Shown here: piece after piece, positions 2,585 to 18,071 of the stretch | How positions within the stretch are numbered: position 1 is the first letter of the stretch | How the letters are laid out: each line of letters starts with the position of its first letter | Assembly (NCBI GenBank): GCA_041649115.1 | Contig: JBAZNT010000001.1 | Location: 140,325 to 204,324, forward strand | Direction of reading: 5' to 3' | Source of the DNA: Candidatus Omnitrophota bacterium | Lineage (GTDB): Bacteria > Omnitrophota > Gorgyraeia > Gygaellales > Profunditerraquicolaceae | DNA: 64,000 nucleotides | The notes under the pieces: model-generated | Told to the model about the DNA's origin: nothing | What the model saw: the letters and a program-made list of their open reading frames with translations, nothing else | Database searches by the model: none | Made by a program: the position numbers and the translations under genes

Positions 2585-3793
2585 ATGATTGATTTTGGCC
2601 CGTGGGAAGCAAGTCCCCCTGAGGTGAGATTGACGCTTCTGGCAGCAAGGGCCTTAGTCAGCGGCGCCGATAAGGAAACAACCCAGGAACTTTTAAACCG
2701 TCAATCCCTGGATTGGGGCCAGTTCAACAGACTCATCAGATACCACGAATTATCGCCTTCCGCTTATATCATCCTAAAAGAATTTCCTGCGTTAGTCTCT
2801 CAGGAAGAGCTAAGATTACTGGAGCAGCAGTTTTACTGCAACCTCCTGCGTTTAAGTTTGCTGCAGCAGGAGCTGATTGAAATCATGGGTAATCTTCAAG
2901 CGCGCAACATTACGGTTTTACCATTAAAGGGAGCGCATTTTCTTTTGGATCCCGAGCCCTACGGCGACAAGGCTTATTTAAGACCGATGCTCGATATGGA
3001 TATCCTGGTCAAGAAGGGCGACTATCATGAGGCGCAGCGTATCCTGGAATCCAGAGGATATCTCAAGGAGCTATACGACAGAAAAGAAGAATACTGGCGC
3101 AGCAGAAGCTACCATCTTGCTTTCAGGAAAAAGTCCGGCGGTAGAATCAACTATATGGTAGAGTTGCACTGGGGATTGGACTATCCTAAGAATAATCATT
3201 TGTTGCCGCAATTCTGGGAGAGAAGTATAAAGAGGCAAAGGGAAGGGGGGTGTATCTATCTTTGTTCTCCGGAGGACACGCTCCTGAGTCTTGCCTTGCA
3301 CCAGCGTCGTTTCGGCAAGATGCTTTTATTGAAGAACGCCTGTGACGTAGCTTTATTATTGCGCAGATATAAAGATGCGTTGGATTGGGATTACCTCCTG
3401 CGGGAGGCAAAGGAGGCGCGGATGCTCACCGTGCTTTATTTTGTCCTTTTTCAGGCAGAGTTTCTGTTTGGCCCCCGGATACCGGACGCCTTTTTAAAGA
3501 CATCGGGGGTGGCGGGGTATAAAAGAAAATTAATCCGTGATTTTATCCTGGAAGATACCTTTAGCTGTCGTCCGGACTTAAAGAGGCTTTATCTCAAGGC
3601 CCATTTTTTGCTTTATGATAATTTTGCGCAACCCCTAAGGGTCGTGTTAAATATTCCGCAGGAACAATTTGCCAAATTCTACGGTTTATCGCCTTATGTT
3701 TTTACCACCGTTATCCGTTATCATTTTCGCTGGTTTTATTTTATTAAAAGTTGCGTAGAAATTCTGCATAAAACATCCATTCGCAGGCGATAG
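2585..3793 (+). CDS. Uncharacterised nucleotidyltransferase-family protein (NTP_transf_5-like)
   Basis: 402-aa ORF starting 5 nt after the helicase stop. The pattern LPLKGAHF...LRPMLDMDILV...ELHW resembles the 'uncharacterised nucleotidyltransferase' family. Recognition is from memory only. Confidence 0.5.
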   Translation: MIDFGPWEASPPEVRLTLLAARALVSGADKETTQELLNRQSLDWGQFNRLIRYHELSPSAYIILKEFPALVSQEELRLLEQQFYCNLLRLSLLQQELIEIMGNLQARNITVLPLKGAHFLLDPEPYGDKAYLRPMLDMDILVKKGDYHEAQRILESRGYLKELYDRKEEYWRSRSYHLAFRKKSGGRINYMVELHWGLDYPKNNHLLPQFWERSIKRQREGGCIYLCSPEDTLLSLALHQRRFGKMLLLKNACDVALLLRRYKDALDWDYLLREAKEARMLTVLYFVLFQAEFLFGPRIPDAFLKTSGVAGYKRKLIRDFILEDTFSCRPDLKRLYLKAHFLLYDNFAQPLRVVLNIPQEQFAKFYGLSPYVFTTVIRYHFRWFYFIKSCVEILHKTSIRRR

Positions 3794-12891: not shown

Positions 12892-12919
12892 TTGACAAGC
12901 GCAGTTTTTCTGTTAAAAT
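12892..12919 (+). promoter_or_regulatory. Sigma70-type promoter of the rib operon
   Basis: TTGACA (12892-12897), 16-nt spacer, TAAAAT (12914-12919), directly upstream of the FMN aptamer. Confidence 0.55.
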
Positions 12920-12927
12920 ACTTTCAT

Positions 12928-13200
12928 TAATCTTCGGGGCAAGGTGACCCGCCTCTTAGAGGCGGATATTCCTGACCGGCGGTAGCGTAGAAACGCACAC
13001 CGATTCGTCGTTTTGAATCGGGTGTTAGCGCAGAAGCGCATACTAATCCATCATTTTGGATTAGGTGTTAGCGCGAAGAACGCATTCCAGTCTATCTTTA
13101 GATTGGATATAAAGCCCGCGAGCCTCCGCGTTAATATCGGCGGAGGCGGACCTGGCGGAATTCCAGGGCCGATGGTAAAGTCCAGATGGGAGAAGATGAG
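12928..13200 (+). promoter_or_regulatory. FMN riboswitch (RFN element), unusually long aptamer
   Basis: The conserved RFN core strings are present in order: CUUCGGGGCAAGGUGA...AUAUUCCUGACCGGCGGUA...AAAGCCCGCGAGCC...GGACCUGGCGGAAUUCCAGGGCCGAUGGUAAAGUCCAGAUGGGAGAAGAUGAG. It lies directly upstream of ribBA and is followed by an intrinsic terminator. Confidence 0.9.
12982..13110 (+). repeat. Three tandem ~43-nt two-hairpin modules inserted in the P3 arm of the FMN riboswitch
   Basis: Units lie at about 12982-13023, 13024-13066 and 13067-13110. Each has GCGy-AGAA-rCGC plus a 7-bp hairpin: CCGATTC/GAATCGG, CTAATCC/GGATTAG, CCAGTCT/AGATTGG. The stems differ in sequence but keep their pairing. Confidence 0.8.
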
Positions 13201-13212
13201 GAGAATTTTTTT

Positions 13213-13240
13213 ACCCGAAGATCATCTCTTCGGGTTTTTT
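13213..13240 (+). terminator. Riboswitch expression-platform intrinsic terminator
   Basis: ACCCGAAGA (13213-13221), loop TCATC, TCTTCGGGT (13227-13235), then TTTTT. It ends 17 nt before the ribBA ATG. Confidence 0.85.
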
Positions 13241-13256
13241 AATAGGCAGGTGATAA

Positions 13257-14471
13257 ATGTTAAACCCCATAACTGAAATAATCAAGGACCTCAAAGAAGG
13301 CAGGATGGTAATCGTGGTTGATGACGAGGACCGCGAGAACGAAGGGGACCTTATGATGGCCGCCTCTTTTGCCAGGGCCGAGCACATAAATTTCATGGTA
13401 AAATACGGCCGTGGAATACTATGCTTCCCGATGGAGGAGGAGAGGCTTAATAAGCTGGAGCTTATGCCCATGTTTGAAGGTAAATTGCAGAAACAGGGAT
13501 ATAAGAGGGATGCGTTTTCTACCGCCTGGACGGTCTCGGTGGACGCCGCCCGGGGCGTTACAACCGGCATCTCGGCTTTTGATCGTGCCCGCACCCTTGA
13601 GGTTTTGATAGATCCCGAGACCAGGCCTGAGGACCTGGTGCGGCCGGGGCATACCTTTCCTTTGCAGTCGCGTAAAGGAGGAGTCCTGGTACGCGCCGGC
13701 CATACCGAAGCGACGGTGGATTTGATGAGGCTGGCCGGGCTCTACCCGGCGGGGGTGATATGCGAGATTATGAACGAAGATGGAAGTATGTCGCGTCTGC
13801 CGCAGCTTAAGGAGTTCGCCCGGGAACACCGGCTTAAGATATGCTCTATTGCCGACCTTATTGAGTATCGCCGGCGTTCCGAGAAACTCATTGAGCGGTT
13901 ATCAGAGACTACCTTGCCTACTGAGTTCGGCACTTACAGGCTTATTATTTACCGTGACCTCCTCAGCGGGCAGACGCACGTGGTTCTTACTATGGGAGAC
14001 TGGGAGGAAGAGGCGGTGCTGGTGCGGGTGCACTCGGAATGCCTTACCGGAGACGTTTTCGGTTCGCTGCGCTGCGATTGCGGCAGGCAGCTTAAAAAGG
14101 CAATGCAGATTATAGGCAAGGAAGGCAAGGGTGTTATCCTTTATATGAGCCAGGAAGGCCGCGGCATAGGACTGGTTGAGAAGATCCGTGCCTACAGCCT
14201 GCAGGATAAAGGGCTTGATACCGTTGAGGCAAACGAGGCACTGGGATATCAGGCTGACCTGAGGGATTATGGTATTGGGGCCCAGATACTGGCTGAGCTG
14301 GGCCTCAAGAACATACGGCTACTTACCAATAATCCGCGCAAGATTGTAGGTCTGGAGGGCTACAGCCTCAAGGTCACAGAGCGCATCCCGTTAGAGATAG
14401 AGCCTAATAGCGTTAACTACCGTTATCTAAAGACAAAGAAGGATAAGCTCGGCCACAACCTGAACATTTGA
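13257..14471 (+). CDS. ribBA: Bifunctional 3,4-dihydroxy-2-butanone-4-phosphate synthase / GTP cyclohydrolase II
   Basis: DHBP synthase motif [13 protein letters not shown]...GHTEA and GCH II motif [20 protein letters not shown]. 404 aa. Confidence 0.95.
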
Positions 14472-14480
14472 CGGTCCGGA

Positions 14481-14541
14481 GTTGTTTAACTAACGTTACG
14501 CCCAACGCTAAGTGGAATTGTGTTGGCGTTGTTTAACTAAC
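14481..14541 (+). repeat. Perfect 14-nt direct repeat flanking an imperfect hairpin in the ribBA-ribH spacer
   Basis: GTTGTTTAACTAAC occurs at 14481-14494 and 14528-14541. Between the copies, ACGCCCAAC...GTTGGCGT can pair. The second copy abuts the ribH RBS (AAAGGAGGG). Confidence 0.7.
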
Positions 14542-14554
14542 AAAGGAGGGAAAG

Positions 14555-15022
14555 ATGGTAAAGGTTATTGAGGGAAATCTTATTGCTAAAGGCAGGAGAT
14601 TTGCGATCGTCGCTTCCCGCTTCAACGATTTTATCACTAAGGAACTGGTTGCGGGTTGCCTTGATGCACTTACCCGCCACGGAGCAGAGGATAGCGCCAT
14701 TTCGCTTACCTGGGTTCCCGGGGCATTCGAGATACCCGCCGTAGCGGCAAGACTTGCCAGGTCCAAGTCTTACGATGCATTGATATGTCTGGGTACGGTA
14801 ATACGCGGAGCAACCCCGCATTTTGAATACGTGGCATCCGAGGTTTCCAAGGGCGTAGCGCGCCTGTCGCAGGATACCGGATTGCCGGTTATATTCGGCA
14901 TTATTACCGCCGATACCATCGAGCAGGCGATTGAGCGCGCCGGGACAAAAGACGGAAATAAAGGCCGCGATGCCGCATTGAACGCCATAGAGATGGCAAA
15001 CCTTATGGATAAGGTGAAATAG
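14555..15022 (+). CDS. ribH: 6,7-dimethyl-8-ribityllumazine synthase
   Basis: Contains [28 protein letters not shown] and TPHFEYV. 155 aa. Confidence 0.95.
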
Positions 15023-15436
15023 ATGCGCAAACGCACCCAGTCCCGCGAATTTGCCCTGCAGCTTCTTTATCAAATTGACATCAGCGGAGACAAAGATTGC
15101 GATGCCGCCTTGAATAATCTCTGGGAAAGGCAGGAGAAGGATACGGCTGCTGACGTGAAGGATTTTGCGGCCGAGCTCTTCCGGGGAGTGGTTGCAAATC
15201 TTAAAGAGATAGATTCCAGGATTGCTCAATATGCCAGCAATTGGCAGATCGGGCGCATGGCAGTAGTAGACCGCAATATCCTGCGCCTTGCGAGTTATGA
15301 GCTCATCTTCCGCGACGATATCCCGCCGAAGGTTTCCATCAATGAAGCAATTGAGCTGGCAAAGAAGTATTCTGGCCCGGAGGCCGCTAAATTTGTCAAC
15401 GGCATCCTGGATAAGGTCAAATCGGAGAAAAAATGA
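15023..15436 (+). CDS. nusB: Transcription antitermination factor NusB
   Basis: Contains RSREFALQLLYQ...VDRNILRLASYEL...INEAIELAK. It starts immediately after the ribH stop. Confidence 0.92.
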   Translation: MRKRTQSREFALQLLYQIDISGDKDCDAALNNLWERQEKDTAADVKDFAAELFRGVVANLKEIDSRIAQYASNWQIGRMAVVDRNILRLASYELIFRDDIPPKVSINEAIELAKKYSGPEAAKFVNGILDKVKSEKK

Positions 15437-16266
15437 TGAGGACAGCCGACCTGCATCTTCATACCTGTTTCTCCGACGGTACCTATACGCCCGAGGAACT
15501 GGTAAGAGAGGCCTCAAGGAGCGAACTTTCCTGCATCGCGATAGCGGACCACGATACGGTTGAGGCTATAGAGCCGGCCTTGGCAGCGGCTAAATCCAGG
15601 GAACTGGAGGTTATCCCCGCGATAGAGCTGACCGCTGACTACGGAGGAAACGAGTTGCATATCCTGGGTTACCTTTTTGACCATAAGAACAAATTCCTGC
15701 AGGAGAGACTTTCCTCCTTGAAGTCCGACCGTGCCGAGAGGATGCAGAAGATTCTTTCCAAATTGCGGGATAACGGGGTAATCCTGGAGGCCGAGGACGT
15801 CTTTAGCTTTTCTCGGGTCGGCACAGTCGGAAGGCTGCATATTGCGCAGGCAATGGTAAAACGGGGGATTGTGAATTCTACGCAGGAGGCCTTTCAGAGA
15901 TATATCGGAGACAAGTCACCGGCCTATGTCTCGGGTTTCCGCTCTTCGCCTCAGGAGGCGATCGCGCTCATACGCCGGACCGGCGGCATCGCGGTATTGG
16001 CGCATCCTTATACCTTAAGCCGCGATGAAATGCTGACGCAGCTTCTTGAATGGGGGCTCCAGGGGCTGGAGGCGTATTATCCCGAACACAGCCAGTCGCA
16101 GGTCAACTTCTACCTGAAGTACGCCCAGGAGCACAATCTTCTCGTTACGGGAGGTTCGGATTGCCACGGGGATGCCAAGCCCGAAGTGCGCATCGGAACC
16201 TTTAGGATTCCTTACGCATTGGTAGAGAAATTAAAAGAGGCCAAGAGGTTAGCTGATGGCAGATAA
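15433..16266 (+). CDS. PHP-domain metal-dependent phosphoesterase (TrpH/YciV-like)
   Basis: Contains ADLHLHTCFSDGT...IAIADHD...LHILGY...LAHP...GGSDCHG, the PHP His/Asp ligand pattern. ATGA overlap with nusB and 11-nt overlap with ribD. Confidence 0.85.
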   Translation: MMRTADLHLHTCFSDGTYTPEELVREASRSELSCIAIADHDTVEAIEPALAAAKSRELEVIPAIELTADYGGNELHILGYLFDHKNKFLQERLSSLKSDRAERMQKILSKLRDNGVILEAEDVFSFSRVGTVGRLHIAQAMVKRGIVNSTQEAFQRYIGDKSPAYVSGFRSSPQEAIALIRRTGGIAVLAHPYTLSRDEMLTQLLEWGLQGLEAYYPEHSQSQVNFYLKYAQEHNLLVTGGSDCHGDAKPEVRIGTFRIPYALVEKLKEAKRLADGR

Positions 16267-17356
16267 ACCTGGAAGCATCCATCAAGAATATATGGCGTCG
16301 GCTTTAAGATTAGCGCTAAAAGCCAAGGGCATGACCAGTCCTAATCCTATGGTAGGGGCGCTGGTAGTCAAAGATAAACGCATCATCTCCCAGGGGTACC
16401 ATGAAAAGGCAGGGCTTGCGCATGCCGAGATTGTGGCTTTGGATAAAGCAGGCGAGAAGGCCCGCGGCGGGAGCCTTTATGTTACGCTGGAGCCATGCAC
16501 CCATTTTGGCAAGACCCCTCCCTGCGTGGACAGGATTATCAAAAGCGGCATCAAAGAGGTCTTTATAGGCATGATTGACCCTAACCCCCTGAATAACGGC
16601 AGGGGGGTAGAGATGCTCCGGCAGCACCGCATCAAGGTTCATGCCGGTATATTAGAGGGGAGGATTAGAAAAACAAACGAGGTCTTTATAAAATACATCA
16701 CTAAAAAACTCCCCTTTATTACGGTTAAGATCGCAGAATCGCTTGACGGCAGGATTGCCACCCGTAGCGGAGATTCCAAATGGATAACGTCCGATAAAGC
16801 CAGGTTATATGCCCATCGCATCAGGGCGGATTACGATGCCGTTGCAATGGGCGTGAATACCGTTTTGCGCGATAATCCCAAGATGGACGCTTGGTTTTCT
16901 AAAAGGCAGCCGGTTAAGGTCGTGGTGGATAGCCAGTTAAGCACCCCGCAGGATGCCGATATCTTCTTGCACTGCACCAAAGTGATAATAGTAACCCTGC
17001 CGGTGAGATCCGGTCAAGAGACCGAAAACAGAAAGATACTCTCCCGACGGGCCATGATACTTGAGGTCAGGGAAAAGGCAGGGCAGGTTAATCTTAAGGA
17101 TATGATGAAGAAACTCGCAAGGCTTGGAATAACCAATCTTCTGGTAGAAGGAGGAGGGACGTTGATAGGCTCCTTATTTGACGAGGGGCTGGTGGACAAG
17201 GTGCTGTTTTTTATCAGCCCCAAGATTATCGGAGGCAAGGATGCCATCGGTTCCGTGATGGGCCGCGGCGTGAGCCGTATTGATAAGGCCCTAAGATTGC
17301 GGGATGTCAGCCTAAGGCGCATAGGAGAAGATTTTCTGGTGGAGGGTTATGTTTAG
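16256..17356 (+). CDS. ribD: Bifunctional diaminohydroxyphosphoribosylaminopyrimidine deaminase / 5-amino-6-(5-phosphoribosylamino)uracil reductase
   Basis: Deaminase motif HAEIVAL...PCTHFGKTPPC and a C-terminal RibD reductase domain (SLDGRIA...GGGTL). Confidence 0.93.
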   Translation: MADKPGSIHQEYMASALRLALKAKGMTSPNPMVGALVVKDKRIISQGYHEKAGLAHAEIVALDKAGEKARGGSLYVTLEPCTHFGKTPPCVDRIIKSGIKEVFIGMIDPNPLNNGRGVEMLRQHRIKVHAGILEGRIRKTNEVFIKYITKKLPFITVKIAESLDGRIATRSGDSKWITSDKARLYAHRIRADYDAVAMGVNTVLRDNPKMDAWFSKRQPVKVVVDSQLSTPQDADIFLHCTKVIIVTLPVRSGQETENRKILSRRAMILEVREKAGQVNLKDMMKKLARLGITNLLVEGGGTLIGSLFDEGLVDKVLFFISPKIIGGKDAIGSVMGRGVSRIDKALRLRDVSLRRIGEDFLVEGYV

Positions 17357-17930
17357 CGGGATTATCGAAGAACTGGGCGAGGTAAAGGGCCTCCTGGCCG
17401 CCGGGAGAAACAGTACCCTTGAGGTTGATGCCCGCATAGCCTCTTGCGATGTTAAGATAGGCGATAGCGTTGCCGTTAACGGTGTTTGCCTGACGCTGGT
17501 GGAGAATAACCGCACAACATTGGGTTTCCAGGTAATGCCAGAGACCTTAAGGGGCACGAACCTCAGGTATTTAAAAAGGGGCGATAAGGTTAATCTGGAG
17601 CGGGCCTTGCGGTTAGGTGACAGAGTCTCCGGGCATTTTGTATTGGGGCACGTAGATTGCATCGGTAGCATACGCCGCAAGGGGTACCGTCAAGGCAGTC
17701 TCTGTTTCCAGATTGCAGTTCCGCCGGGGCCGGCGCGGTATATATTGCCGAAGGGCTCCATTGCAGTCGACGGTATAAGCCTCACTGTAGCGGAGAAAAA
17801 ATCAACTGTTTTTAGCGTTTATCTTATTCCGCACACCGCAAAGAATACGACCCTGGGATTTAAGGGGGCATCCGGCCTGGTCAACGTTGAATTTGACATC
17901 CTTGCCAAGAAATCCGAAAGCGTACCTTAA
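17349..17930 (+). CDS. ribE: Riboflavin synthase (alpha chain)
   Basis: MFSGIIEELGEV N-terminus with an internal duplication (GDSVAVNGVCLT / GSIAVDGISLT). Confidence 0.93.
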   Translation: MFSGIIEELGEVKGLLAAGRNSTLEVDARIASCDVKIGDSVAVNGVCLTLVENNRTTLGFQVMPETLRGTNLRYLKRGDKVNLERALRLGDRVSGHFVLGHVDCIGSIRRKGYRQGSLCFQIAVPPGPARYILPKGSIAVDGISLTVAEKKSTVFSVYLIPHTAKNTTLGFKGASGLVNVEFDILAKKSESVP

Positions 17931-17993: not shown

Positions 17994-18071
17994 CGGGGCG
18001 TGGCTCAGTTTGGCTAGAGCGCAGCGTTCGGGACGCTGAGGTCGGTGGTTCAAGTCCACTCGCCCCGACCA
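17994..18071 (+). tRNA. tRNA-Pro (anticodon CGG), 3' CCA encoded
   Basis: Acceptor stem CGGGGCG/CGCCCCG, D arm GCTC...GAGC, anticodon stem CAGCG/CGCTG with loop TTCGGGA, T arm GGTGG-TTCAAGT-CCACT, discriminator A, then CCA. Confidence 0.93.

What the first reader, a model, noticed from the sequence alone, without database searches (positions are those of the whole stretch)
12928..13200. FMN riboswitch about twice the usual length: triplicated two-hairpin module in P3 and an extra hairpin in the P2 loop
All conserved RFN core segments are present and are followed by a clean terminator. The aptamer nevertheless spans about 270 nt.

Between ACCGGCGGUA and AAAGCCCGCGAGC, which is the P3 arm, lie three tandem ~43-nt units (12982-13110). 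Each unit contains a GCGy-AGAA-rCGC mini-hairpin plus a 7-bp hairpin.

The 7-bp stems are CCGATTC/GAATCGG, CTAATCC/GGATTAG and CCAGTCT/AGATTGG. Their sequences have diverged while pairing is preserved, and the first mini-hairpin also shows a U-A to C-G swap. This argues for selection on RNA structure and against a recent slippage duplication.

In addition, a perfect 7-bp hairpin CCGCCTC-TTA-GAGGCGG (12949-12965) is inserted in the P2 loop, which normally makes a tertiary contact in FMN aptamers.

The modules could be protein- or RNA-binding sites added to the riboswitch, or a lineage-specific peripheral scaffold.
Basis: seen in the sequence. Interest (0 to 1): 0.6.

Follow-up and report, generated by a model that had tools for sequence, protein, structure and literature searches.

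The report
FMN riboswitch swollen by hairpin repeats
This is a genuine vitamin-B2 (FMN) riboswitch in an Omnitrophota bacterium, about twice the normal size because one of its outer loops holds three copies of a small two-hairpin repeat; the same repeat also sits in other loops and in a nearby spacer in related genomes, so it is most likely a tolerated, proliferating insert and not a new sensing domain.

Summary
Window 12926-13201(+) is a full-length RF00050 FMN riboswitch (80.5 bits, 276 nt; 20 aptamers from other phyla measure 113-153 nt). It has a promoter, an antiterminator and a terminator, and sits upstream of ribBA-ribH-nusB-PHP-ribD-ribE. The P3 loop holds three 43/43/42-nt units, each a GCG-stem mini-hairpin plus a 7-bp hairpin. 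The P2 loop holds a 7-bp hairpin.

Relatives change the interpretation. Among Omnitrophota with 72-99% identical RibBA, the P3 loop carries 0, 1, 1.5 or 3 units. The same unit also occurs in P4 and in the P6 loop, nested inside its own loops. It occurs in reverse orientation in the P6 loop of one relative and in the ribBA-ribH spacer of two others. Both insertion sites are known permissive T-loop positions (the optional P3a helix).

The long hairpin covaries (9 of 9 pairs). G-U and A-C cells are equally frequent, so the stems behave as DNA-level palindromes. In the three-copy lineage the stems are frozen (0 of 64 paired positions changed, against 48% change at fourfold sites).

Best reading: a lineage-specific structured insertion built from a proliferating palindromic repeat. 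It is a new variant of a known riboswitch. An accessory function is not excluded.

The parts
12892..12919 (+). sigma-70-type promoter: TTGACA, 16-nt spacer, TG-extended TAAAAT. The inferred transcript start is near 12926.
   Evidence: 11 of 12 matches. It is conserved in L081 and L082.
12926..13201 (+). FMN riboswitch aptamer (RF00050), 276 nt. P1 is 12928-35/13192-99, P2 12942-44/12971-73, P3 12979-82/13116-19, P4 13122-29/13140-47, P5 13151-55/13163-67 and P6 13173-75/13182-84.
   Evidence: 80.5 bits, full model 1-138. The minimum-free-energy fold reproduces the helices.
12948..12970 (+). Insert in the P2 T-loop: a 7-bp hairpin CCGCCUC-UUA-GAGGCGG (12949-12965) between the conserved GGUGA and AUUCC.
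   Evidence: -13 kcal/mol, z -4.0. Similar 24-27-nt inserts are at the same position in L208, L213, L014 and L017, with different stem sequences.
12983..13025 (+). Repeat unit 1 in the P3 T-loop. Mini-hairpin GCGU-AGAA-ACGC (12985-96) and long hairpin CCGAUUC/GAAUCGG (13000-06/13015-21), extended by CA/UG around a bulged G.
   Evidence: (50.9 bits).
13026..13068 (+). Repeat unit 2. Mini-hairpin GCGC-AGAA-GCGC (13028-39) and long hairpin CUAAUCC/GGAUUAG (13043-49/13058-64). It is the unit closest to the single P3 copy of relatives (86% identical to L208's).
   Evidence: (52.5 bits).
13069..13110 (+). Repeat unit 3. Mini-hairpin GCG-CGAAGAA-CGC (13071-83) and long hairpin CCAGUCU/AGAUUGG (13087-93/13100-06). 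It is followed by the T-loop 3' part AAAGC (13111-15).
   Evidence: (39.3 bits).
13213..13241 (+). Intrinsic terminator: a 9-bp stem ACCCGAAGA/UCUUCGGGU with a 5-nt loop, then a U run.
   Evidence: and (repeat I3).
12930..12938 (+). The 5' strand of P1 plus J1/2 (AUCUUCGGG). It is perfectly complementary to the terminator's 5' arm at 13214-13222 and is the inferred antiterminator partner.
   Evidence: repeat I2: 9 nt, 100% complementary. The switching mechanism is inferred from the known FMN riboswitch design.
13257..17930 (+). The controlled operon: ribBA (13257-14471), ribH (14555-15022), nusB (15023-15436), a PHP-domain gene (15433-16266), ribD (16256-17356) and ribE (17349-17930).
   Evidence: Pfam. 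The same gene order is found in relatives.

Best explanation
The element is an ordinary FMN-sensing, transcription-terminating riboswitch that controls the riboflavin operon.

Switching (inferred from the known design):
- When FMN binds, P1 (12928-35/13192-99) is held shut, the terminator at 13213-35 forms, and transcription stops.
- Without FMN, the 5' strand of P1 (12930-38) pairs with the terminator's 5' arm (13214-22), and RNA polymerase reads into ribBA.

Origin of the extra length:
- About 140 extra nucleotides sit at two positions where the FMN fold is known to accept extra helices. These are the tips of the T-loops that cap P2 and P3 (the site of the optional P3a helix).
- The P3 insert is three head-to-tail copies of a roughly 43-nt two-hairpin palindromic repeat unit.
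- The unit belongs to a small repeat family confined, as far as sampled, to rib-operon non-coding DNA in one Omnitrophota subclade. There it has multiplied at the DNA level by an unknown route: local or inverted duplication, template switching, or an unidentified mobilising enzyme.
- The unit is found in P3, P4, the P6 loop, inside its own loops and in the ribBA-ribH spacer, in either orientation.

Role (inferred): each copy folds on its own into stable hairpins that point away from the FMN-binding core, so the sensor still works. Once fixed, the stems are held by purifying selection, because a broken hairpin in the middle of the aptamer would misfold it. The copies are therefore structured passengers, comparable to expansion segments. 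They are not part of ligand sensing.
For: The riboswitch itself:
- RF00050 full-length hit.
- Promoter, terminator and antiterminator complementarity.
- Riboflavin operon downstream.

Permissive sites:
- Inserts lie between the intact GGUGA...AUUCC and GGCGGU(A)...AAAGCCCGCG.
- PMC3201879 describes P3a/L3a of the F. nucleatum aptamer as becoming solvent-exposed on folding.

Copy number and position vary among close relatives (percentages are RibBA identity to the window):
- L209 and L210 (77%): no insert, aptamers of 134-137 nt.
- L208 (79%), L083 (82%), L084 (80%), L001 (73%), L110 and L156: one unit in P3.
- L213 (77%): one unit plus an extra mini-hairpin.
- Window, L081 (99%) and L082 (84%): three units.
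- Units also occur in P4 (L001, L213) and in the P6 loop (L003, L084, L213), and nested in L003 P3.

DNA-level behaviour:
- Reverse-orientation copies are in the L213 P6 loop (local alignment score 50 on the minus strand against 27.5 on the plus strand) and in the ribBA-ribH spacer of L207 (32 bits) and L211 (49.3, 26.9, 18.9 and 18.8 bits, tandem and nested).
- A 26-nt stretch spanning a unit junction is 100% identical between the window's P3 array and L211's minus-strand spacer array.
- G-U equals A-C (7 and 7 of 233 paired cells).
- Both strands of the L211 array fold equally well (z -7.35 and -7.39).

Structure and selection:
- Long hairpin: 9 of 9 pairs have changes on both sides, 88.8% of cells are paired against 19-48% when the partner is slid by 1-3 columns.
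- Window against L082: 0 of 64 paired module positions changed; unpaired module positions are 84% identical; P4 is 65% identical; fourfold sites of ribBA are 52% identical.

Specificity:
- No module hit in FMN leaders of other phyla, and none elsewhere in about 560 kb of loci.
- None elsewhere in the window.
Against: - The mini-hairpin stem GCG/CGC is invariant. Its loop nearly always ends in AA. The linker and long-hairpin loop (AUCNNUUU-like) are well conserved across copies and species. This is more than a pure filler needs.
- Module stems in the three-copy lineage are more conserved than P4 (0 of 64 against 9 of 26 positions changed; Fisher p 4e-6). This could reflect a sequence-specific function.
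- No copy was found outside rib-operon non-coding DNA in 64 kb (window) plus 21 kb (L214), so a genuinely dispersed repeat family is not shown.
- No mobilising gene, target-site duplication or terminal inverted repeat was found.
- FMN binding, and the dispensability of the units, are inferred and not measured.
Confidence: 0.6

Rival explanations
1. The modules are a selected accessory RNA domain of the riboswitch. One version is a multivalent binding platform for a protein or RNA that adds a second regulatory input, as RibR does on Bacillus FMN riboswitches. Another is a tertiary scaffold whose A-rich mini-hairpin loops dock on neighbouring helices and stabilise the P3-P5 and P2-P6 peripheral contacts.
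For: - Invariant GCG/CGC mini-stem and NNAA-type loops (GCAA, GUAA, UGAA, GGAA, AGAA, ACAA) in all copies.
- Placement in both pseudo-symmetric T-loops (the P3 and P6 loops), next to the known loop-loop contacts (PMC3201879).
- Frozen stems and 84% identical unpaired positions, against 52% identity at fourfold sites, between the window and L082.
- Three copies would suit an oligomeric binder (inference).
Against: - Relatives with 77% identical RibBA and near-identical aptamer cores have no module at all (L209, L210).
- Copy number is 0, 1, 1.5 or 3.
- Reverse-complement copies, which have a different RNA sequence, are tolerated in the L213 P6 loop and in the L207 and L211 spacers.
- The long-hairpin sequence and loop differ completely between some close pairs, for example L083 and L156.
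- No gene in the neighbourhood co-varies with module presence.
Confidence: 0.2
2. The unit is a bona fide mobile, genome-wide repeat (REP/RAYT-like, or a palindrome-associated element derived from IS200/IS605). On this reading it happens to survive in riboswitch loops only because these compact genomes offer few other non-coding sites.
For: - Both orientations, tandem and nested arrays, and insertion twice at the same point of the AUCCGAUA loop in L211.
- A 26-nt identical unit junction in different loci of genomes whose synonymous sites are saturated.
- Stems are almost purely Watson-Crick.
- The window is about 94% covered by ORFs, with only about eight gaps over 100 nt, so the absence of copies elsewhere is weak evidence.
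Against: - No copy outside the rib leader and the ribBA-ribH spacer in 64 kb plus 21 kb plus about 20 relatives' flanks.
- No terminal inverted repeats and no consistent target-site duplication. A flanking UA appears only in L208 and the window (sequence inspection).
- The REP-type 5' GTAG is not a consistent feature.
- No transposase was looked for or seen.
- The P4 copy in L213 carries the AAAAGCC flank typical of the P3 site, which suggests segmental copying and not a defined-end element.
Confidence: 0.15
3. The array is recent slippage junk, unstructured filler, or an assembly artefact of a repeat.
For: Tandem head-to-tail arrangement; the copy number differs between relatives.
Against: - The same three units, each with its own stem sequence, occur in three independent assemblies: the window, L081 (ENA ERZ27315056, 7 substitutions counted by eye) and L082 (Logan SRR9855028).
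- The units are only 61-74% identical to each other.
- Each unit folds well below shuffled controls.
- 0 of 64 paired positions changed over a divergence that altered 48% of fourfold sites.
Confidence: 0.03

Closest known systems
FMN riboswitch (RFN element, Rfam RF00050), e.g. Bacillus subtilis ribD and Fusobacterium nucleatum impX aptamers
   Same: Full six-helix core and all conserved junction segments. T-loop nucleotides of the P2, P3, P5 and P6 loops are intact. Terminator/antiterminator expression platform. Location upstream of riboflavin synthesis genes.
   Different: 276 nt, against 113-153 nt in 20 comparators. The P3 loop carries six hairpins (3 x 2) instead of none or one P3a hairpin. 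The P2 loop carries an extra hairpin.
Riboswitch 'variable insertions' and the optional helix interrupting FMN/AdoCbl T-loops (Barrick & Breaker 2007, PMC2258182); P3a/L3a of the F. nucleatum aptamer (PMC3201879)
   Same: Same insertion points. The inserts fold into stable stem-loops. They are present or absent among relatives without loss of the core.
   Different: Here the insert is not an arbitrary hairpin. It is a recognisable repeat unit with a conserved sequence, shared between different loops, different genomes and a non-riboswitch spacer, in both orientations, and multiplied in tandem.
REP/BIME elements and other small palindromic intergenic repeats of bacteria (own knowledge)
   Same: Short imperfect palindromes in non-coding DNA. 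They occur in either orientation and in clusters, with compensated stems, and are carried inside transcripts.
   Different: No dispersed high copy number was seen. Units are direct (head-to-tail) and nested, not inverted pairs. Each unit has two hairpins. There is no consistent GTAG head and no known mobilising gene. Residence inside a riboswitch aptamer was not found in the literature searched.
Expansion segments of ribosomal RNA (own knowledge)
   Same: Lineage-specific helical additions at solvent-exposed tips of a conserved RNA fold, leaving the functional core untouched.
   Different: Much smaller scale, in a cis-regulatory mRNA leader, and built from one repeated unit.
RibR protein acting on Bacillus subtilis FMN riboswitches (own knowledge)
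   Same: A precedent for a second, protein-mediated input on an FMN riboswitch.
   Different: No RibR-like gene or any binder was identified here, and module-free relatives argue against a required partner.

Membership tests
FMN riboswitch (RF00050) | Covariance-model score at or above Rfam's gathering threshold over the full model | tested here: met
   80.5 bits against 66.2, model positions 1-138, E 1.1e-16.
FMN riboswitch (RF00050) | Six helices P1-P6 around a conserved junction, with T-loop-type P2, P3, P5 and P6 loops | tested here: met
   The alignment to the consensus shows every helix and junction segment. The minimum-free-energy fold of the 276 nt reproduces P1-P6.
FMN riboswitch (RF00050) | Cis position upstream of riboflavin synthesis or transport genes, with an expression platform | tested here: met
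   ribBA-ribH-nusB-PHP-ribD-ribE lie downstream. Terminator and a 9-nt antiterminator complementarity are present.
FMN riboswitch (RF00050) | Binds FMN and switches | not testable with these tools
   Requires in-line probing or termination assays.
Variable insertion / optional P3a-type helix at a T-loop | Lies at the specific permissive point of the T-loop, with the flanking T-loop nucleotides intact | tested here: met
   GGUGA[23 nt]AUUCC and GGCGGU(A)[units]AAAGCCCGCG. The empty sites in L209, L210 and L211 read GGCGGUAGCAAAGCC, GGCGGUAAAGCC and GGCGGUUAAGCC. Site description is in PMC2258182.
Variable insertion / optional P3a-type helix at a T-loop | Folds into independent stem-loops | tested here: met
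   Covariation in the long hairpin: 9 of 9 pairs.
Variable insertion / optional P3a-type helix at a T-loop | Sequence not conserved | tested here: not met
   Copies from different loops and genomes are 74-88% identical to a common consensus, with an invariant GCG/CGC mini-stem.
REP/BIME-type repetitive extragenic palindromes | Many dispersed copies in extragenic DNA of the genome | tested here: not met
   No copy outside 12983-13110 in 64 kb (filters off). In L214 (21 kb) copies occur only in the ribBA-ribH spacer. Complete genomes could not be scanned.
REP/BIME-type repetitive extragenic palindromes | Occurs in both orientations and in clusters | tested here: met
   Minus-strand copies in L207, L211 and the L213 P6 loop; tandem and nested arrays.
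REP/BIME-type repetitive extragenic palindromes | Associated RAYT (Y1/HUH) transposase and a conserved GTAG head | not tested
   No transposase search was made. GTAG is present only by context in unit 1 (GGTAGCG) and is not a consistent unit feature.
MITE (miniature inverted-repeat transposable element) | Terminal inverted repeats and a target-site duplication | tested here: not met
   The unit ends GCGC... and ...GUGU are not inverted repeats. A flanking UA repeat is seen only in L208 and the window, and not in L083, L084, L001 or L003 (sequences).
Tandem riboswitch / tandem aptamers | Two or more complete aptamer cores in series | tested here: not met
   There is a single RF00050 hit in the window. 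The repeated part is only the P3-loop insert.

The most novel reading that the evidence does not exclude
The 43-nt two-hairpin unit is a previously undescribed self-propagating element. In one version it preferentially enters hairpin or T-loop tips of structured non-coding DNA or RNA. The shared minimal site GGUAAAG in the P3 and P6 loops, and the repeated AU^CCGAUA site in its own loop, would fit this. In the other version it is a multivalent landing pad for a rib-operon-specific factor, which would give these FMN riboswitches a second input.
Probability: 0.15. Interest if true: 0.75.

Novelty: new variant of a known kind. Interest (0 to 1): 0.45.

Why it matters
- The FMN aptamer can carry a 125-nt, six-hairpin array at its P3 T-loop, and further inserts at the P2, P4, P5 and P6 loops in relatives, while staying under strong purifying selection. 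This gives a natural map of insertion-tolerant sites for engineering.
- It warns annotators. Several expanded relatives fall below Rfam's gathering score (57.8, 60, 45.5 and 44.9 bits) and would be missed.
- I found no published report of a small palindromic repeat family multiplying inside a riboswitch aptamer, in either orientation. It offers a simple route by which structured RNAs could acquire 'expansion segments'.
- If the modules turn out to bind a factor, this would be a rare case of a natural riboswitch with an added input.

Tried and rejected
- Metagenome pattern scan CCTKACCGGCGGTNGCG. The pattern was too GC-rich. Of the 80 loci returned, 78 were unrelated coding DNA, and only L110 and L156 were FMN riboswitches with a module. 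The single metagenome scan was largely wasted.
- Viral-contig scan for TAGCGCAGAAGCGCAYAC: no match.
- Tandem Repeats Finder: does not detect the array.
- Rfam at a permissive E-value on the L211 module array: only chance-level hits (mir-314 at E 0.61), so the unit is not a described RNA family.
- BoxA/NusB idea for the U-rich long-hairpin loops (AUCUUUA resembles the boxA core): rejected, because the loops differ completely in L083, L084, L001 and L110.
- MITE reading: rejected, with no terminal inverted repeats and no consistent target-site duplication.
- Antisense RNA from the L211 spacer: no minus-strand promoter-like site was found. Only a terminator-like hairpin was found, and both strands fold equally well. 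This is left open.
- Recent horizontal replacement of the leader as the cause of its conservation: not supported. Flanking cinA is 61-67% identical and ribBA 41-57% identical at fourfold sites right up to the leader; only the first 50 ribBA codons are higher, at 10 of 13.
- Other intergenic gaps of the window contain no comparable hairpin elements.
- The look-up of encoding contigs for P0009 returned no DNA, and L207 lacks the leader because the contig ends there.

Full report
**What is there.** Rfam's FMN model (RF00050) matches window 12926-13201(+) end to end at 80.5 bits (gathering score 66.2). The match has two large inserts: 23 nt in the P2 loop where the model has 4, and 125 nt in the P3 loop where it has 10.

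A near-consensus promoter lies just upstream (TTGACA, 16-nt spacer, TG-TAAAAT; 12892-12919). A 9-bp terminator with a U run lies just downstream (13213-13241). The 5' strand of P1 (12930-38, AUCUUCGGG) is perfectly complementary to the terminator's 5' arm (13214-22). This is the usual antiterminator arrangement.

The genes that follow are ribBA, ribH, nusB, a PHP-domain gene, ribD and ribE. The 276-nt aptamer folds in silico into P1-P6 plus the extra hairpins (z -5.3). The basic identification is therefore secure.

- The P3 insert consists of three units at 12983-13025, 13026-13068 and 13069-13110.
- Each unit has a 3-4-bp GCG(Y)/(R)CGC mini-hairpin with an A-rich loop, and a 7-bp hairpin that is often extended by two pairs around a bulged purine.
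- The P2 loop carries CCGCCUC-UUA-GAGGCGG.
- Twenty FMN aptamers upstream of ribBA in other phyla measure 113-153 nt, so this one is about twice the usual size.

**Organism and relatives.** The closest RibBA proteins belong to Candidatus Omnitrophota. I fetched leaders from relatives found by protein search. Synteny is conserved (cinA divergent, then ribBA-ribH-nusB). The table lists what each leader carries.

| Locus | RibBA identity to window | Aptamer content |
|---|---|---|
| L081 | 99% | The same three units in P3 |
| L082 | 84% | The same three units in P3 |
| L208 | 79% | One P3 unit (86% identical to the window's unit 2), a P2-loop hairpin, and a large P6 insert |
| L083 | 82% | One P3 unit; a plain hairpin in the P6 loop |
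| L084 | 80% | One P3 unit and a second unit in the P6 loop |
| L213 | 77% | One unit plus an extra mini-hairpin in P3; units in P4 and in the P6 loop |
| L001 | 73% | Units in P3 and P4, plus a 47-nt P6-loop insert |
| L003 | 72% | Units in P3 (one nested) and the P6 loop |
| L209, L210 | 77% | No insert at all; 134-137-nt aptamers |
| L211 | 76% | No P3 insert; only a plain hairpin in the P6 loop |
| L004, L007 | 68%, 66% | Plain long hairpins in the P5 loop |
| L009, L010, L013, L015, L022 | 61-63% | No riboswitch upstream of ribBA |

Peripheral expansion is therefore common and labile in this clade. The triplication is specific to the window's species group.

**The unit is a repeat family and not a P3 domain.** I built a covariance model from 13 copies.
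- It finds copies only in these Omnitrophota leaders. It finds none in FMN leaders of other phyla, and none elsewhere in about 560 kb of loci.
- It finds none elsewhere in the 64-kb window.
- It does find copies outside any aptamer. The 347-nt ribBA-ribH spacer of L211 holds at least four units on the minus strand, in tandem and nested (best 49.3 bits). The same spacer of L207 holds one minus-strand unit (32 bits).
- The P6 insert of L213 holds a complete unit in reverse orientation (alignment score 50 on the minus strand against 27.5 on the plus strand).
- A 26-nt stretch spanning a unit junction (UCGGGUGU|UAGCGCAGAAGCGCAUAC) is identical between the window's P3 array and L211's minus-strand spacer array. 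RibBA is only 76% identical between these two genomes; fourfold sites were not measured for L211, but they are only 31-45% identical to the window in relatives at 77-82% RibBA identity.
- In 21 kb around L211's operon, the units occur only in that spacer.
- No Rfam family matches the unit.

**Structure against sequence constraint.**
- On a MAFFT alignment of 13 copies, the long hairpin shows changes on both sides at 9 of 9 pairs. 88.8% of cells are paired, against 19-48% when the 3' partner is slid by 1-3 columns.
- The GCG/CGC mini-stem never varies. Only its fourth pair switches, between C-G and U-A.
- G-U and A-C cells are equally frequent (7 each of 233), and both strands of the L211 array fold equally well. 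The stems therefore behave as near-perfect DNA palindromes and show no RNA-strand asymmetry.

Conservation between the window and L082 varies by segment:

| Segment | Identity, window vs L082 |
|---|---|
| Module paired positions | 100% (0 of 64 changed) |
| Aptamer core | 97% |
| Module unpaired positions | 84% (9 substitutions, 1 deleted and 6 inserted nt) |
| P4 | 65% |
| Fourfold sites of cinA | about 63% |
| Fourfold sites of ribBA | 52% |

Once in place, the hairpins are clearly under purifying selection.

The three units are 61-74% identical to each other. Their orthologues in L082 are 98, 84 and 90% identical to the window's. The triplication therefore predates that split.

**Relation to what is known.**
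[quoted passage not shown] They noted that riboswitches tolerate 'variable insertions' that form stem-loops.
- Vicens et al. (PMC3201879) name the optional helix in P3 as P3a/L3a. They report that it becomes solvent-exposed on folding, while the L2-L6 and L3-L5 T-loop contacts hold the periphery together.
- Both inserts in the window sit exactly at these points, with the flanking T-loop nucleotides intact. The empty sites in L210 and L211 read GGCGGUAAAGCC and GGCGGUUAAGCC.
- The location is therefore ordinary. What is unusual is the content: a conserved two-hairpin repeat, multiplied in tandem, shared between loops, genomes and a spacer, in both orientations.
- Full-text searches found no report of palindromic repeats inside riboswitch aptamers, and none on Omnitrophota riboswitches.

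**Interpretation.** The best-supported reading (confidence about 0.6) is a normal FMN off-switch carrying structured passengers. A clade-specific palindromic repeat has proliferated at the DNA level into the few positions where extra helices do not disturb the fold, and is then kept cleanly folding by selection.
- Shown: identity as an FMN riboswitch; the anatomy; the site; variation among relatives; orientation flips; covariation; in-situ conservation.
- Inferred: FMN response; dispensability of the units; the DNA-level mechanism of spread.

An accessory function (protein binding or tertiary bracing) stays possible at about 0.2, because of the invariant mini-hairpin and the frozen stems. A truly mobile, genome-wide element is possible at about 0.15, but was not seen outside rib non-coding DNA. 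The window is about 94% ORF-covered, however, so it offers few other sites. Slippage junk or an assembly artefact is excluded by three independent assemblies and by the divergence between units.

**Verdict.** This is a new variant of a known kind, of moderate interest.

Noticed in passing
window 14481-14494 and 14528-14541 (+): Two exact copies of GTTGTTTAACTAAC flank a hairpin in the 83-nt ribBA-ribH spacer (0.01 expected by chance). The sequence resembles the boxA core (GCUCUUUAACAA in E. coli, from own knowledge), and nusB lies just after ribH. PMC5725501 reports putative boxA upstream of ribH-nusB in Pseudomonas and proposes nusB autoregulation. L207 has three copies.
   Followed up: partly
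L211 2781-3045 (-), same as L214 11281-11545 (-): The ribBA-ribH spacer (347 nt, against 30-110 nt in most relatives) is almost entirely an array of the two-hairpin units on the minus strand. Two copies are inserted at the same point (AU^CCGAUA) of another copy's loop. L211's own riboswitch has no unit in P3.
   Followed up: yes
L213 about 1319-1385: The P6-loop insert contains a complete unit in reverse orientation next to a plus-oriented mini-hairpin. The same aptamer also has units in P3 and P4, and would be about 300 nt long.
   Followed up: yes
L004 2613-2801, L007 2585-2791, L082 about 1167-1447, L213 1095-about 1400: Expanded FMN riboswitches score below Rfam's gathering threshold (60.0, 57.8, 45.5 and 44.9 bits against 66.2) or are misaligned. 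Standard annotation would miss them.
   Followed up: partly
L084/L085/L086 about 1402-1470: Two extra GC-rich hairpins (CCGCCAUAAUUCAUGGCGG and CCCGCCGGGAAGCCUGGCGGG) lie between the aptamer and the terminator. They would lengthen the interval between aptamer completion and the termination decision.
   Followed up: no
L211 about 1290-1500: About 210 nt of long, unrelated palindromes lie between the riboswitch terminator and the ribBA start codon. L208 and L213 have shorter conserved sequences at the same place (...GAGCGACGATGGGAGC...).
   Followed up: no
L009, L010, L013, L015, L022 (upstream of position 3001, or 1506 in L010): More distant Omnitrophota (RibBA 61-63% identical) have a promoter directly upstream of ribBA and no FMN riboswitch at all.
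   Followed up: partly
window 12983-12997, 13026-13040: The start of each unit (UAGCGCAGAAGCGCA) resembles a tRNA D-arm with a minimal loop: U8-A9, a 4-bp G10-C25-type stem, then A26 (own knowledge of tRNA numbering). It sits inside a T-loop. This is probably coincidence.
   Followed up: no
window 17994-18068 (+): A tRNA gene (Rfam 61.5 bits) lies immediately after ribE, at the end of the riboflavin operon.
   Followed up: no
window 12983-13110: The mini-hairpin stems of the three units are nearly identical, so they can cross-pair. The minimum-free-energy fold of the isolated array pairs unit 1's 5' arm with unit 3's 3' arm. The long-hairpin stems are mutually orthogonal.
   Followed up: partly
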